Origin: Raja brachyura
Lineage: Eukaryota
Assembly (NCBI GenBank): GCA_963514005.1
Contig: OY740788.1
Span: forward strand, 38,192,001 to 38,256,000
Length of the DNA: 64,000 nt
Direction of reading: 5' to 3'
This document shows, piece by piece, positions 54,001 to 60,000 of this stretch. Position 1 is the first letter of the stretch. Each line of letters starts with the position of its first letter. The position numbers were made by a program.

Positions 54001-57000
54001 ATTGCCTGGGTATAATTGCCTGGTGTGATGTATGTGATATAATTAGCATATGTTATGTCTTGTGTGAGGGGACGCATGCGCTGGGGGAGATTCAAGGCGG
54101 CGTCCTAGAATAAAGAAGCTTGTTAGTTTACTCCTGTATCTGAGTGTTCTTTTAAGTCAGTTCCAAGCACCCAAATACACTACAATTGGCGACGAGGATG
54201 GGATGGAGTTTGTGAACTCACCTGCAGGACTGTTTTGCAACAAGCAGGATTGTTTAACAGTTTAAACAATAGATATGGAGTTGTGTTGCAGTTGTTTGCG
54301 AGCTGGACATGAGAGGCCTGCAGATCCCTCTAAGCATGGGACTGTAGTTTAAAACATCAGCTGTACAAGTCAGCGAGTTTGTCAGGCTATCTCTATGTTG
54401 TGTCTACGTGGCAAGAGGTCGTCCTTCGGATTGTTACACATTTTAGACTGAGTTTTTTCTGTCGAATTCCTCAAGCTGAATAATCTTTGTACAGCTAAGT
54501 TTTAGGTGAATTGTTACACCAAAACACACAAGGATAACGAGGCAACGAGGATAAAAGAACAGAAAAGAACAAAGAACAAGGGCTGTCAAGAGAAAAAAAA
54601 GTTAAAAAGAAGAGGTTGTGTTTGGAAACAAAGTGGAACGGCACCAAGCAAAAAGATTTGGTGCCAAATGGTTTTGAATTGGCGCCAAAGAAAAGAAAGG
54701 TCAGAACAGGAAGCAAGGAAAACAAGTGGGGCAGTAAGTAAGTGTCACTGAAGACACTTGAATGTGAATGTAATGCGTGGGCACAGTAAAAGCAGGACTG
54801 TTTGAATGTAATGCATTGGTCACTGTTATTAATAGTAAATCTGGGTGCATAGAAGGAATATGGTTTAAAATATTCTAGTTGGCTATTAACATGAAATGTT
54901 GGTTAATAGTATAAATCCATTATTATAAGAATTAGTAATAGTCAATAGGCTGGATCACTTCTTAGCGTGTAAAAGGATTAAGTTTAGTGCAGAAAACACA
55001 GTGAGAGAACAGAACATAGTGCATCTGAATAGCAACAGGGTAACATGGCTTTTCAAATTGTAGGAAAGGTGCCCTAGTTAGATTCTGGGTGTAATTTTGA
55101 GAAATGGACCAAAGTCTTGAGGGCTTGTTTCATTTCCAATGATATCGCTGCAGAGGATAAGAAGAGAGCATGGTTCATATTAGGCTTAGGAAAAGAGGGT
55201 TATCAGACCTTACATAGGTCACTGCAGCCAGCAACTCCCACAGATAAAATGTACGAGGAGTGTCAGGAGGCATTAATGGCTAATTTCTCACCAAAACCTC
55301 CAAGGGCATCCAGAGGCAAGGAGCCTGAACTAAAGAGGGCAGGGAGTCCCTCAAAGGACAAAAGTCAAGGGCAAAGTGACAAAAGTCAAGGGCAAAGTGA
55401 CAAAAGTCAAGTGCCAAGTGACAAAGGTCAATTGGAAAAGGCCAAAGGTCAAAGGCAAAGGGACATTGCCATCCAGAGGGCAACCCTAACTATTCAAGCT
55501 GCATTCAGGGGTATGAAGGTACGGAGAGAGATCCAGAACAAACAGAAGGCAGCAACAGTAATACAAACAGCATTTAGAAGGCACAGAGTATACCATCCAT
55601 ACAGGGCAATGCGATTGGCAGCTATATTTGGTCAAAACCCATTATAGGGCACACCTTCAAATGGAAAGTGATCATAAGACTTACATGAAGGTACACAGCA
55701 GCTTTGTACTGCTTCAGGCTGCCTACCGAGGAATGCTTGTTCGAAAGCAATTGCGGGGCATGCACAAATCTGCCAAGTCATACAGACTTATTATCAGATG
55801 CATAAACAGCGTCAGTATTTCAAGAAACTACGCTGGTCTGCTATTGCGGTACAGCAACGATACAGAGCTTGCCAGATAAGTGATGTCCAAGTGAGACATT
55901 ATAATAGTTTGAGAAAAGCAGTGGTTTGTATTCAGGCCTTTTACCGTGGGATTAAAGCCAGAGGATTGGTTGAGAAAATCAAGGCAGCATGCCATATTAA
56001 GTCAGTCTTAATGATGCGCATTACAAGAAAACATTTCTTGATGCAAAAGGCGGCTGTAGTCACTCTGCAAGCTTCATACCATGGTTACCGATCAAGGGTA
56101 CGCTACAGAGCTATGCGACAAGCAGTCATTTCGATCCAGAGATGGTACAAAGCATGCAATATGGGGCATTCAAAGTTTGTGCAATATCAGTCAATGGGGT
56201 ATGCAACCATTACCATTCAGGCTGCCTACAAGGGTATGGTGGTTAGGCAGTGGATTAAGCAAAAGAGGGCTACTGTAAAAGTTCAGTCAGTACTTCGTAT
56301 GAGTTGGTATAGGAAAGACCTAAGGAGACAAACAGAGGCTCAACAGAAAAGGCTGAAACAATACAAAAGGCTTAAACGATATAGGAAAGACTTCTTCAAA
56401 CTGAAATATACAACAGTTGTAGTGCAGTCTCACTACCATGCTTATGCAGTAAGAAAACTATACAGAGTGCAAATCTGCAATACAACAGAGCAAAGCCATT
56501 GTTGTATTGCAAAGACAATATAGATCCTACTTCTTGATGAATAACCAGAAAGGTGATTTAAGAAGACAAATAGATGAAACAGAGAGAATGTTAACTTTTG
56601 CAGAATATCATGAACAGGAAGAAATCTGCAAATTAGATTAGAATATTTAAAAAGGGAAGAGCCAGAGATACAGGTAGAGTTAGAGTGATTAGAAAGAGTG
56701 CGCAATTTACACAAAGGGAACGGAAAAGGATAACACATAAAGCAAGGGGTAATGTACGTGGTTTAAGGAAGAGGAGTGGAATGAAAAATTATGTGCTAAG
56801 TTTAGATACGATTATTACAGTTATGCGGATGTAATGTAAGATGACTGTAATAATATAATTTTGCAAGTTACTCAATTATATTTAATGTAAACGGAATGGT
56901 GTTATCCGCCTCCAAGTTAAAGGGGGAGCAGTGTGGTGTGTATTATATAAATGGTGTTACCTGCCTCCAAGTTAAAGGGGGAGCAGTGTTATGTATGTGA

Positions 57001-60000
57001 TATAATTAGCATATGTTATGTCTTGTGCGAGGGGACGCATGCGCTGGGGGAGACTCAAGGCGGCGTCATAGAATAAAGAAGCTTGTTAGTTTACTCTTGT
57101 ATCTGAGTGTTCTTTTAAGTCAGTTCCAAGCACCCAAATACACTACACCTGGGTATAATTATGAAATATCAGTTAAAGTCAGGAAAAGGTGCAGCAGTAG
57201 ATTTGCTGCTTTACTGTGCTAGAGGGTTAGATCCTGACTACGGGTGCTGTCTGTACAGAGTTTGTACATTCTCCTTGTTACCACGTGGGTTTTCTTCTGG
57301 TTTCCTCCCACACTCCAAAGATATGCAGGTTTGTAAGCAAATTGGCTTTAGTAAAATTGTAAATGGTCCCTAGTGCGTGTAGATAGTGTTAATGTGCGGG
57401 GATTGTTGTTCAGCGCGGACTTGGTGGGCCTTAAGGGCCTGTTTCCACGCTGTATCCCTAAACTCAACTAAATTAAAATTAACTCGCCAGGCAAGCTGGA
57501 ACAAACTTATGCAGTCATGAGGTTGGCAGAGGCAGGAAAAAGAGCAATGGCCGCAAAACTGGTGATCTGCTAGAAAAATGGATGTGAATGATCAGCGTGA
57601 CAGAAATAATAGTAAACACTGGCCAAACTACTATGAAATGGTGACCTGGGTGGAACTAAAATGCCACACAGTGTTTATTTGTGTGGCATTTTTGATCGCT
57701 AGAGCCACATAAATTATGTGACTGATAAAGACCATATATGAACATTGATTCATATTGAGGAATAATATTAACCACGTTGAAGAAAGTTTAAGGACTGAAA
57801 TGGTAGTCAAAATGAGTACTGCGTACTGAAGATAATGTCGCCTCTGGCCACAATGCTCAAGAAGGTAACTGTAAGTTGCTTGTGTAGGAAAGAACTGCAG
57901 ATGCTGGTTTACACCAGAGATAGACACAATAAGCTGGACTAACTGAGTTACTCTAGCTGTAAGTTGCTTGCCAACTATTGCTTGTTGAATGATAACCATG
58001 TAAGAAGAATTTTCTTCCTTATAAATTCTCTCCAACTATTTTGCCTTGTCCATGATTCGGTTTTACTTTACATCATTTGCCTTGACTTTTTAAAAACTGG
58101 ATTTGAATCTCATCCAGCAGACTGTGATATCTAAAAGTTAAAGAATATCTTGACAAGAATGGGCAAGACCGGATGGATGGGCCAGCTGGTGTTTGCCCTG
58201 TTAGGATTCCAGAAATTTGTTTGCCCTTAAAATATTTAAAATTCAAATCTGCTGACGCTGGAATTTTGGAAATTATTGGTGCTGACTATAGTCTTTGAGT
58301 TTAGTTTAGTTTAGTTAGAGATACAGCGTGGAAACAGGCCCTTCGGCCCACCGAGTCCATGCCGACCAGCGATCCCCACACACTACACACACTAGGGACA
58401 ATTTACAATTATACCAAGCCAATTAACCTACAAACCTGTACGTCTTTGGAGAGGGGAAAGAAACCGAAGATCTCGGAGAAAACCCATGCGGTCGCAGTGA
58501 GAACGTACAAACTACGTACAGACAAGCACCCGTAGTCGGGATCAAACTTGATCAAACCCGAGTCTCCAACGCTGTAAGGGCTGTAAGGCAGCAACTCTAC
58601 CGCTGCGCAACGATGCTGCGTTGTGGTCTTGGTCCACAATATTTCTGAACATTGGCTCAGTATTTTCAGTGGTTCCTGTTTATTTTAAATCAAATCAAAT
58701 TCACCAAGCCTCATGTGAACCGGCTGGGTGTCATTTCTTGCCCCAACTTTTTTCAACACAAGTGGGTGAGTTGGACTTAGGCTGCAGTGTTTAAGATTCT
58801 AATGTTTGTCCTGAACCCGAGCAACCAGCGATCTCCCGGTTGCCAAACACTTTAACTCCACGTCCCGTCCCCACACTGACCTTTCTGTCTTGGGCCTCCT
58901 CCACTGTCAGGGTGAGGCCACACACACATTGGAGGAACAACACCTCATATTGTGCTTGGGCATCTTACAACCCAGTGGTATGAACATTGAATTCTCTAAT
59001 CCCTCTCTCTACATCCCTCCCCCACCCTAGTCGTCCTGCCAGTTTCACTGTTGGTATCCCTTCATTATCAACTTCTCCGCAGCCAACAATGGACCATTGT
59101 GGGCTCCTTGGCAATCGGTGCCGGCTATGATTTGTTCTGTACCTTTTCATACCTCTAGCTTTCCTCTCCTCTGACTCTCAGTCTGAAGAAGGGTCTCAAC
59201 ATGAAACAATTAATTTTCTCCAGAGATGCTGCCAGACCTGCTGAGTTACTCCAGCATTTTCTGTCCACATCTGTTTTTAGCTGCTAACATTGATTCTATA
59301 TTGCTGAGGCACCAGAAGGGTACAGCTCTATAAACGTATTAATGGATCAGATGTAGAGCAGAATAACCAGTGATCCAGTGAGCTATGTCAATGAGTTTTC
59401 AGGATATACCACATGATTCAGGTGCTATTTTCTATTTAAAATGCTGTTAATAGGAGCTACTATTAATCAAATCAAGTATTAAATGCGGAAAGAAGTAAAA
59501 TTAATTTACAACAAGATTAAGATTAAGGGACATTGTTTAAATTGGTGAATAGTCAATTTAAAAGGATGTCAAGAAATTTATTTTGTTGAGAAAATGGTAT
59601 TCAGTGTTTCACAATATTCCCCAGACAAGGTAGTAAAGTCAAAAACATTACAAATGCTCAAACTGCAGCTGGAGGACATTGTGGGAGTATTGAAGTACAG
59701 TTAGGATGAAGTTAATGGGTCATTTGGCATTGCTTTGTCTTTAACTCGTCTAATATTCTTGCGATCATTTGAGGAGTCTTCTGTGCCATGTGGCACTGCA
59801 TCCATTTTTGAATGACTTACAAAACCATCAAACAGATTAGCAAAATCCCTCTACATAATGAATGCGCTCCTTCTGCTAACATTAATTATTACTTAAACAT
59901 AGAAAATGTATCACAACCAAAGTTTCTGAGCTTGCATTCCGACATTTATACATTTGTTTACTTTGTCTTGGGCCTTTCCCCAATCGTGAATTCCTTCTTT

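What the first reader, a model, noticed from the sequence alone, without database searches (positions are those of the whole stretch)
54024..57147. LTR retrotransposon that captured an ASPM-like IQ-repeat array and fused it in frame to gag
Seen: a structurally complete LTR element (161-bp LTRs, CCTGG TSD, PBS, PPT) with no recognisable pol. A gag-like N-terminus of about 85 aa reads without frameshift through a DKSQGQS linker into about 1 kb of IQ motifs. Known: this IQ pattern is characteristic of the large exon of ASPM, a calmodulin-binding spindle-pole protein, and the gag motif with a tRNA-Ser PBS and 5-bp TSD fits Mag/K02A2.6-type Gypsy elements. Inference: a host-gene fragment was transduced and then amplified as a non-autonomous family. 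The Gag-IQ fusion could have co-assembled with helper Gag or bound calmodulin. I know of no description of such a family.
Basis: partly seen in the sequence, partly recalled or inferred. Interest (0 to 1): 0.92.

Follow-up and report, generated by a model that had tools for sequence, protein, structure and literature searches.

The report
Retrotransposon carrying ASPM-like and TLK fragments
A dead, helper-dependent LTR retrotransposon in a skate-like genome has half of its capsid gene fused to pieces of two host cell-division genes, which makes it a clear vertebrate case of gene capture by a retroelement and not a new kind of system.

Summary
The element is real. It spans 54024-57147 with 161-bp LTRs (156 of 161 bases identical), a CCTGG target duplication, an 18-nt primer-binding site identical to a published tRNA-Ser(GCT) primer, a polypurine tract and no pol.

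A second, older copy lies at 42695-38560 on the minus strand. It is an independent insertion with the same junctions.

The N-terminal part is a true Ty3/Gypsy-type gag fragment. It keeps only the first four capsid helices.

The IQ array has about 15 units. Its only database relatives are asp/ASPM proteins, and a 290-aa Leucoraja erinacea protein with the same gag-linker-IQ fusion is named an ASPM homologue by NCBI. The skate's own ASPM could not be compared.

After the IQ array comes a tousled-like kinase (TLK) coiled-coil segment (E down to 2.9e-20).

Neither copy is intact. Copy 1 has one stop, three frameshifts and one deletion. dN/dS between the copies is 0.99.

This is a new member of a known kind, like maize Bs1 and retroviral gag-onc fusions. 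Interest is moderate.

The parts
54019..54023 (+). Target-site duplication of copy 1, left copy (CCTGG)
   Evidence: Read; the same five bases follow the 3' LTR.
54024..54184 (+). 5' LTR of copy 1 (161 bp, TG...CA). It holds a TATAA at 54038-54042 and an AATAAA at 54109-54114, which are motif sightings only.
   Evidence: 156 of 161 bases identical to the 3' LTR, no gaps.
54187..54204 (+). Primer-binding site, complementary to the 3' end of tRNA-Ser(GCT)
   Evidence: 18 of 18 bases equal the start of the primer printed in the methods of PMC9072684. No tRNA gene in the window was available for comparison.
54205..55044 (+). Leader of copy 1, with no recognisable coding content. About 345 bases after the primer site are absent from copy 2.
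   Evidence: (no Pfam family for the 81-aa ORF).
55045..56735 (+). Chimeric fusion gene of copy 1 (gag N-lobe, linker, IQ array, TLK-like segment). It is broken by 1 premature stop, 3 frameshifts and 1 large deletion in the TLK-like part relative to copy 2. At least one further frame change and one stop after the shared stop codon are also seen in copy 2.
   Evidence: Three-frame readings, compared with copy 2 and P0002. The breaks were counted by eye and no places are listed.
55045..55299 (+). Gag-derived domain: the first four helices of the capsid (N-terminal lobe). Homology ends at a conserved PKP.
   Evidence: 62 relatives at E<=1e-3; 34 of 74 identical to P0003 residues 82-155; helices of P0003.
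55352..55465 (+). In-frame coding minisatellite (21-nt unit, 5.5 copies) that forms the linker. Copy 2 has 6.6 units, and P0002 has a longer run (56 extra residues in the alignment).
55462..56554 (+). IQ-motif array of about 15 units, asp/ASPM-like
   Evidence: Pfam IQ at E 6.7e-8, 2e-7 and 3.3e-6 on three single-frame pieces; asp/ASPM orthologues hit only here.
56555..56735 (+). TLK (tousled-like kinase) coiled-coil remnant of copy 1, shortened by a deletion
   Evidence: 5o0y_A, E 0.0012, two short stretches; homology to the TLK-like part of copy 2.
56895..57004 (+). 55-nt tandem duplication that repeats the polypurine tract and the first bases of the LTR. The polypurine runs lie at 56919-56931 and 56974-56986.
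56987..57147 (+). 3' LTR of copy 1
57148..57152 (+). Target-site duplication of copy 1, right copy (CCTGG)
38560..42695 (-). Copy 2 of the same family (4136 bp), flanked by TGACG (42700-42696) and TGACA (38559-38555). Its primer site is cut short and its 3' LTR lacks its 5' part. The leader carries an extra GC-rich segment of about 0.9 kb.
   Evidence: No flank-to-flank similarity to copy 1.
42484..42695 (-). 5' LTR of copy 2, the long form (212 bp) that begins with the 55-nt stretch holding a polypurine run
   Evidence: 180 of 202 columns identical to 56932-57147 of copy 1.
38963..41134 (-). Chimeric fusion gene of copy 2. It is broken by at least 5 in-frame stops, at least 3 frameshifts and 1 nested SINE-like insertion with its own target duplication. 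Its domains are: gag part 41134-40886, linker repeats 40814-40676, IQ array 40679-39470 and TLK-like part 39469-38963.
38963..39469 (-). TLK-derived coiled-coil segment of copy 2, colinear with residues 67-270 of the crystallised human TLK2 fragment. There is no kinase domain.
   Evidence: Three single-frame pieces hit 5o0y_A at E 3.6e-10, 2.9e-20 and 1.3e-5. Pfam gives nothing above its cut-offs on six tail pieces.

Best explanation
[quoted passage not shown] It kept what is needed in cis: LTRs, a tRNA-Ser(GCT) primer-binding site, a leader, the start of gag and a polypurine tract. It lost the capsid C-lobe, the nucleocapsid and all of pol. Two host-derived coding fragments now sit in their place and were originally read in one frame with the gag N-lobe. 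The order is gag N-lobe, a 7-residue-repeat linker, about 15 asp/ASPM-like IQ units, and then the pre-kinase coiled-coil part of a tousled-like kinase. The fragments were most likely picked up from host messenger RNAs by template switching during reverse transcription; this step is inferred. Copies then spread with proteins supplied by an autonomous relative, which is also inferred. Shown here: two independent insertions with different target duplications. Both window copies are decayed relics. The fusion protein was probably a passenger and not a requirement for spread.
For: Structure: LTR pair, target duplication, primer site and polypurine tract.

Gag origin: 62 relatives at E<=1e-3 among 1.84 billion representatives. 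I passed 25 of these 62 to Pfam, and 22 of the 25 carry gag-type families. Two of them (P0021, P0045) carry protease, RT, RNase H and integrase in that order. The match to the closest full gag, P0003, stops at its residue 155, between helix 4 (140-151) and helix 5 (157-166) of a confident model. That model's best structural matches are retroelement capsids: dArc1 at E 2e-3, PNMA2 at 3.8e-3 and MLV CA at 5.6e-3.

No pol in the window.

IQ array: Pfam IQ. The only hit among proteins of 423-2000 aa is an asp orthologue (1 hit of 223 candidates, E 2.2e-8). PDB gives only myosin-5A at E 0.04. P0002 is named an ASPM homologue by NCBI. The best repeat lag is 73 aa, with units of 23 and 27 aa as in asp orthologues.

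TLK: three colinear pieces at E 3.6e-10, 2.9e-20 and 1.3e-5, with a remnant in copy 1. Chain residues 67-168 are encoded by about 290 contiguous bases, which leaves no room for an intron.

Family: copy 2 shares both junctions at 87-93% identity and has unrelated flanks. P0002 is a third locus with an intact 290-aa gag-linker-IQ frame.

Decay: the break counts and dN/dS of 0.99.
Against: Pfam does not recognise the gag part of the element itself, so the gag call rests on phmmer hits and their domains. Structure search with the P0002 model gave no match better than E 2.1.

No vertebrate ASPM could be fetched. Of the three protein searches, one was limited to 2000 aa, one found only P0002, and one returned no vertebrate among its 120 listed rows, mostly insects plus one tunicate. 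ASPM origin therefore rests on 25-30% identity to distant orthologues and a database name.

No autonomous partner was seen. The closest full gags are only 44-47% identical.

RNA-mediated capture is inferred. The exon structure of the host TLK and ASPM genes was not available.

Two in-frame junctions and the intact 290-aa frame of P0002 leave room for a once-selected protein.
Confidence: 0.8

Rival explanations
1. The fusion protein was, or in some copies still is, functional. It might be a Gag N-lobe decoy that interferes with a related element's capsid, a calmodulin-binding or coiled-coil factor used by the element, or a gene domesticated by the host.
For: Both junctions are in frame. The gag-linker-IQ frame is seen in a 189-codon stop-free stretch and in P0002. 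The IQ-TLK frame is seen in single-frame pieces of both copies. The cut falls exactly between the two capsid lobes. The N-lobe of P0002 is predicted with block-mean pLDDT of 92-97. P0002 is an intact 290-aa frame that NCBI annotates as a gene isoform.
Against: dN/dS between the copies is 0.99 overall, 1.28 in the gag part and 0.89 in the IQ part, and all three intervals include 1. Both window copies carry stops and frameshifts. The TLK part has frame changes shared by both copies. Two in-frame junctions are expected by chance about once in nine.
Confidence: 0.12
2. The IQ array does not come from ASPM. It comes from another IQ-rich gene, or it grew by internal duplication inside the element.
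For: Identity to asp/ASPM orthologues is only 25-30% and sits at the level of the repeat. The ESM Atlas names only generic IQ-motif clusters. Repeat arrays can converge.
Against: The only significant longer hit is asp. Myosin IQ regions score about a million times worse in a far smaller database. NCBI's pipeline named P0002 after ASPM. The two copies share the same order of about 15 distinct units at 92.9% identity, so the array predates them and is not a recent expansion.
Confidence: 0.15
3. The host pieces entered at the DNA level and not by template switching. For example, processed pseudogenes could have inserted into an element, or recombination between elements and retrocopies could have occurred, with later spread of the rearranged element.
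For: Nested insertion does happen in this family, since copy 2 holds a SINE-like insertion with its own target duplication. The copies differ in identity by section (IQ 92.9%, gag 86.9%), which suggests a mosaic history.
Against: No poly(A) tract or internal target duplication is seen at the gag-linker, linker-IQ or IQ-TLK junctions. Both junctions are in frame.
Confidence: 0.15
4. The locus is an assembly artefact or a segmental duplication.
For: None found.
Against: There are two copies at 84-93% identity with the same internal junctions but different target duplications and unrelated flanks. An independent database protein carries the same fusion.
Confidence: 0.02

Closest known systems
Bs1 LTR retrotransposon of maize
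   Same: It is a non-autonomous LTR element that transduced fragments of several host genes, which form a chimeric reading frame inside the element. I read passages of the review PMC13317346: three transductions, of a proton ATPase, a xylan endohydrolase and a beta-1,3-glucanase.
   Different: Bs1 is a plant element with different cargo. Here the host is a cartilaginous fish, the backbone is of Ty3/Gypsy type by its gag relatives, and the cargo is an IQ array plus a kinase coiled coil. That Bs1's frame begins in gag is recalled, and was not seen in the passages I read.
Acutely transforming retroviruses with gag-onc fusion genes (established knowledge; onc capture is named in a passage of PMC6431247)
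   Same: Host mRNA-derived sequence replaces viral genes between the LTRs. It is fused in frame to a truncated gag, and the resulting defective genome depends on a helper.
   Different: Those are infectious retroviruses that carry growth-driving genes. Here there is no env and no sign of infectivity. The cargo consists of non-catalytic fragments, since the kinase domain of TLK is absent, and the copies are germ-line relics.
Large retrotransposon derivatives (LARD) and other non-autonomous LTR elements
   Same: They have LTRs, a primer site and a polypurine tract but no pol, and they move in trans (passage of PMC6431247).
   Different: LARDs are described as lacking coding capacity. This family carries a recognisable gag lobe and host coding sequence.
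Gag-derived host genes (Arc, PNMA, PEG10, MOAP1)
   Same: The closest full gag relative folds like their capsid domains.
   Different: Those genes keep both capsid lobes and are single-copy genes without LTRs. This element keeps one lobe, has LTRs and is multi-copy.

Membership tests
LTR retrotransposon (structural definition) | Two direct long terminal repeats with TG...CA ends | tested here: met
   54024-54184 and 56987-57147, with 156 of 161 bases identical.
LTR retrotransposon (structural definition) | Short target-site duplication directly outside the LTRs | tested here: met
   CCTGG on both sides of copy 1. Copy 2 has TGACG and TGACA, matching at 4 of 5 bases.
LTR retrotransposon (structural definition) | Primer-binding site complementary to a tRNA 3' end next to the 5' LTR | tested here: met
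   18 of 18 bases equal the start of a published tRNA-Ser(GCT) primer. The tRNA of this species was not seen.
LTR retrotransposon (structural definition) | Polypurine tract next to the 3' LTR | tested here: met
   AAAGGGGGAGCAG ends one base before the 3' LTR and is duplicated 55 nt upstream.
Autonomous Ty3/Gypsy element (Metaviridae) | pol with protease, RT, RNase H and integrase in that order | tested here: not met
   No pol match anywhere in the window. The order is seen only in 2 of 25 gag relatives examined (P0021, P0045), so the Ty3/Gypsy ancestry is an inference.
Autonomous Ty3/Gypsy element (Metaviridae) | Complete gag (both capsid lobes and a zinc knuckle) | tested here: not met
   Homology to P0003 ends at residue 155 of 353, before helices 5-9 and the CCHC knuckle.
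Mag / K02A2.6-type clade | RT or gag phylogeny grouping with named Mag-clade elements | not tested
ASPM/asp (as source of the IQ array) | Long array of IQ motifs | tested here: met
   Pfam PF00612 on three single-frame pieces. About 15 units were counted by eye in copy 2.
ASPM/asp (as source of the IQ array) | Best sequence relatives are asp/ASPM proteins | tested here: inconclusive
   The only hit is an asp orthologue, NCBI names P0002 after ASPM, and PDB gives only weak myosin-5A hits. No vertebrate ASPM was in reach.
ASPM/asp (as source of the IQ array) | ASH and calponin-homology domains | tested here: not met
   asp/ASPM orthologues match only the IQ region of the two copies. The element holds a fragment and not an ASPM gene.
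Tousled-like kinase (as source of the tail) | Colinear match to the TLK pre-kinase coiled-coil region | tested here: met
   5o0y_A residues 67-106, 109-168 and 238-270 in copy 2. Residues 220-235 and a short start in copy 1.
Tousled-like kinase (as source of the tail) | Protein kinase domain | tested here: not met
   No Pkinase match on six tail pieces. The PDB matches stop at chain residue 270.
Gene-transducing LTR element (Bs1 / gag-onc type) | Host coding sequence between the LTRs, fused in frame to truncated gag, with pol missing and several copies at different sites | tested here: met
Gene-transducing LTR element (Bs1 / gag-onc type) | Cargo derived from spliced mRNA (no introns) | not testable with these tools
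   About 290 contiguous bases encode TLK chain residues 67-168, but the exon map of the host TLK and ASPM genes was not available.

The most novel reading that the evidence does not exclude
The fusion of the Gag N-lobe, the IQ array and the TLK coiled coil was a working protein of the family, or is a young host gene in skates. One possibility is a capsid-lobe decoy that binds calmodulin and multimerises through the TLK coiled coil, acting on the assembly of a related element. In that case the intact 290-aa L. erinacea gene model would be a living member.
Probability: 0.1. Interest if true: 0.8.

Novelty: new member of a known kind. Interest (0 to 1): 0.5.

Why it matters
Gene transduction by LTR retroelements is well documented for retroviral oncogenes and for a few plant elements. 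Clear, multi-copy cases in vertebrate Ty3/Gypsy-type elements are seldom described. My searches found no paper that links ASPM or TLK to such an element (titles and abstracts of the listings only).

This family offers a datable series of copies in which two host fragments are fused to one capsid lobe. That series can show how such chimeras form and decay.

There is also a practical point. A public gene model named as an ASPM homologue (P0002) is in fact the gag-IQ frame of this family, so ASPM-like annotations in skates need checking.

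Tried and rejected
- **Vertebrate ASPM comparator:** I could not fetch one. The 'longer' search stops at 2000 aa. A search seeded with the wasp asp calponin-homology region listed 120 of 1580 hits, mostly insects plus one tunicate, with no vertebrate among them.
- **Pfam on the leader ORF, on two antisense ORFs of copy 2's extra leader segment and on 12 other window ORFs:** no family.
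- **Pfam on six tail pieces:** nothing above the cut-offs. The TLK match came only from the PDB sequence search.
- **One copy-1 tail piece:** no PDB match.
- **Structure search with the P0002 model:** no match better than E 2.1.
- **Other scans:** no Rfam family and no tRNA gene in the window. The bacterial promoter and terminator scan is irrelevant here.
- **Regex counts of IQ units:** these were unstable, so I used autocorrelation and counting by eye.
- **Segmental duplication of the two copies:** rejected, since the flanks do not match.
- **Collections:** the closed collections (viral contigs, metagenome contigs) were not touched. Genome contigs holds only bacteria and archaea and was not used, so copy number and species range stay unchecked.
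- **Origin of the window:** I do not take it for human. Its closest protein is from Leucoraja erinacea.

Full report
**1. The observation**

The stretch 54024-57147 is bounded by two direct repeats, 54024-54184 and 56987-57147. They are identical at 156 of 161 positions without gaps, and they start with TG and end with CA. CCTGG lies directly outside both ends, at 54019-54023 and 57148-57152.

Two bases after the 5' LTR comes an 18-nt run that starts with TGG (54187-54204). It is letter for letter the first 18 nt of a primer that a published method uses against tRNA-Ser(GCT). I read the methods passage of PMC9072684.

A purine run, AAAGGGGGAGCAG, abuts the 3' LTR. A 55-nt tandem duplication (56895-57004) repeats this run together with the first bases of the LTR.

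**2. The reading frame**

The gag-like part, the linker and the first IQ units lie in one stop-free stretch of 189 codons. This is not an intact gene, however. The frame that begins at the ATG (55045) holds one premature stop within the gag part. The IQ kilobase is read in alternating frames, with three frameshifts. Part of the tail is deleted relative to the second copy (compared; counts by eye, no places given). So 'reads without frameshift into about 1 kb of IQ motifs' is only partly true.

**3. A second copy**

BLAST of the element against the window found a second, longer copy on the minus strand at 42695-38560. It has the same order of parts and both internal junctions. Identity to copy 1 by section:

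| Section | Identity |
|---|---|
| gag part | 86.9% of 252 columns |
| junction and linker | 93.2% of 161 columns |
| IQ array | 92.9% of 1038 columns |
| LTR | 89.1% of 202 columns |

Its flanks read TGACG and TGACA, and its flanks show no similarity to those of copy 1. The two are therefore independent insertions and not a duplication.

Copy 2 is older and more damaged. Its LTR pair is 92.9% identical over the 85 columns that remain. The 3' LTR lacks its 5' part, and the primer site is cut short. The fusion gene carries at least five in-frame stops, at least three frameshifts and one nested SINE-like insertion with its own target duplication. Relative to copy 1, its leader has an extra GC-rich segment of about 0.9 kb and lacks about 345 bases after the primer site.

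The 5' LTR of copy 2 begins with the 55-nt stretch that in copy 1 is the internal copy of the duplication. The family therefore has a short (161 bp) and a long (about 212-216 bp) LTR form. This would follow if either of the two polypurine runs can mark the LTR start, which is an inference.

**4. The gag part**

An exhaustive phmmer search with the 84-residue N-terminal piece found 62 proteins at E<=1e-3 among 1.84 billion representatives. I gave 25 of the 62 to Pfam. Of those 25, 22 carry gag-type families (Retrotrans_gag, PNMA, DUF7083, DUF7041, often with a CCHC knuckle). Three do not (P0002, P0005, P0023). Two (P0021, P0045) also carry protease, RT, RNase H and integrase in that order, which is the Ty3/Gypsy arrangement.

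Pfam itself does not recognise the gag part of the element. This should be kept in mind.

The closest full gag, P0003 (353 aa), matches at 34 of 74 residues, and the match ends at a conserved PKP, P0003 residue 155. A model of P0003 has mean pLDDT 77.5, with pLDDT 93-98 through its capsid region. It shows nine helices, and residue 155 lies between helix 4 (140-151) and helix 5 (157-166). Its best structural matches are retroelement capsids: dArc1 at E 2e-3, PNMA2 at 3.8e-3 and MLV CA at 5.6e-3. No match reached E<=0.001.

The element thus keeps the N-terminal four-helix lobe of the capsid. It lacks the C-lobe, the zinc knuckle and all of pol. Searching with seven gag and gag-pol relatives found nothing else in the window.

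A model of P0002 predicts this lobe with block-mean pLDDT of 92-97, then a disordered linker and a long helix. A structure search with that model gave nothing better than E 2.1.

The Mag/K02A2.6 placement could not be tested, because names for the relatives were not obtainable.

**5. The linker**

After the PKP the sequence departs from gag. It runs through about 18 residues into an in-frame minisatellite with a 21-nt unit. There are 5.5 copies in copy 1, 6.6 in copy 2 and a longer run in P0002, which has 56 extra residues in the alignment. Its origin is unknown.

**6. The IQ array**

Pfam finds IQ motifs on all three single-frame pieces, at E 6.7e-8, 2e-7 and 3.3e-6. In copy 2, most of the array (253 residues) reads in one frame, and about 15 units can be counted across the whole array.

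Evidence on its source:
- Among proteins of 423-2000 aa, the only significant relative of the 241-residue piece is an asp orthologue of a wasp (1 hit of 223 candidates, E 2.2e-8, 25% identity).
- Four asp/ASPM orthologues, including that of the tunicate Styela, match only the IQ regions of the two copies.
- The PDB offers only myosin-5A, at E 0.04-0.15.
- The ESM Atlas names only generic IQ clusters.
- The best internal repeat lag in copy 2 is 73 aa, and P0002 shows spacings of 23, 23 and 27. asp orthologues also mix 23- and 27-residue units. That vertebrate ASPM has a three-unit higher-order repeat is recalled and was not checked.
- NCBI names P0002 'abnormal spindle-like microcephaly-associated protein homolog isoform X1 [Leucoraja erinacea]'.

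For background on ASPM's IQ domain and its large exon 18, I read passages of PMC374243.

I could not fetch any vertebrate ASPM. ASPM as the source is therefore likely but not proven.

**7. The second cargo**

Three single-frame pieces of copy 2's tail match the crystallised fragment of human tousled-like kinase 2 (5o0y_A) in colinear order:

| Chain residues | E-value |
|---|---|
| 67-106 | 3.6e-10 |
| 109-168 | 2.9e-20 |
| 238-270 | 1.3e-5 |

Copy 1 keeps the start of this segment and residues 220-235 (E 0.0012) and lacks the middle. The matches end where the kinase domain begins, and no kinase domain was found.

The IQ-to-TLK junction is in frame in both copies, since single-frame pieces span it. 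About 290 contiguous bases encode chain residues 67-168, so no intron lies there. If the host gene has introns in this region, as vertebrate TLK genes are recalled to have, the fragment came from spliced mRNA. This remains an inference.

After a stop codon shared by both copies, the remaining TLK-like residues lie in other frames in both copies. That damage therefore predates their split.

**8. A third locus**

P0002 (290 aa) has an intact frame that runs from the same start through the gag lobe (85% identical to copy 1), a longer linker and the first four IQ units. It sits on a 113.5-Mb contig of L. erinacea. It is either a younger family member or a gene model built on one. Because NCBI names it an ASPM homologue, it is an annotation trap.

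**9. Selection**

Codon-wise comparison of the two copies gives dN/dS of 0.99 over 389 codons (bootstrap 95% 0.62-1.63). The gag part gives 1.28 and the IQ array 0.89. The two wrong frames gave 0.51 and 0.64, which shows how noisy the measure is at this depth.

There is no sign of constraint. The test cannot exclude constraint on the lineage that produced the copies, because most differences may date from after insertion.

**10. Mechanism**

- **Shown:** the cis-acting furniture of an LTR retroelement, a truncated gag, two host-like coding fragments in one original frame, no pol, and at least two independent insertions plus one further locus.
- **Inferred:** capture from co-packaged host mRNAs by template switching during reverse transcription, the mechanism reviewed in PMC13317346 (passages read), and spread in trans by an autonomous relative that was not seen.

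Both source genes act in dividing cells, which is established knowledge for ASPM and TLK. This would fit capture in proliferating germ-line cells, but that idea is speculation.

**11. What is known**

[quoted passage not shown] Maize Bs1, with three transduced host fragments forming a chimeric gene, is the closest analogue (passages of PMC13317346).

Full-text searches gave the following:
- ASPM + LTR retrotransposon + calmodulin: 0 papers.
- ASPM + retrotransposon + gag + chimeric: 2 papers, unrelated by title and abstract.
- Tousled-like kinase + LTR retrotransposon: 3 papers, unrelated by title and abstract.
- Leucoraja erinacea + retrotransposon + genome: 14 listed, none on this by title.

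Supplements were not consulted, and TE libraries such as Repbase were not available, so a bare consensus entry may exist somewhere.

**12. Verdict**

This is a real and well-delimited feature. It is a new member of a known kind, of moderate interest.

Noticed in passing
window 44250-46400: A C-rich low-complexity tract of about 2.1 kb (CT and CCCT-type units). The 2-kb block 44001-46000 has GC 0.62 and GC skew -0.90. It produces a spurious 707-codon ORF.
   Followed up: no
window 56895-57004 and 42641-42695: The polypurine tract and LTR start are tandemly duplicated. Copy 1's 5' LTR uses the short form and copy 2's 5' LTR the long form, so one family has two LTR lengths.
   Followed up: partly
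window 54005-54023 with 57148-57161: The target of copy 1 was itself a 14-nt tandem duplication (ATTGCCTGGGTATA twice). The insertion sits in the second unit.
   Followed up: partly
window 52740-52807 / 57880-57947 and 53673-53788 / 58409-58524: SINE-like repeats lie on both sides of copy 1. The same kind of repeat is the nested insertion in copy 2's IQ array.
   Followed up: no
copy 1 versus copy 2, by section: Identity between the copies differs by section (IQ array 92.9%, linker 93.2%, gag 86.9%, LTR 89.1%, tail 86.9%). This hints at a mosaic or recombinant history of the family.
   Followed up: no
window 41394-42306 (copy 2 leader): An extra GC-rich segment of about 0.9 kb holds a 104-nt repeat (1.9 copies, 41993-42192). 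There is no Pfam family on its antisense ORFs. Its origin is unknown.
   Followed up: partly
window 38683-38903: A 113-nt tandem duplication lies in the 3' non-coding part of copy 2.
   Followed up: no
window 32001-36000 and 18001-20000: These blocks have raised GC (0.50-0.54) against a background of about 0.40. I did not examine them.
   Followed up: no
protein P0002 (public database): A 290-aa L. erinacea gene model named as an ASPM homologue is the gag-linker-IQ frame of this retroelement family, so it is likely mis-annotated.
   Followed up: partly
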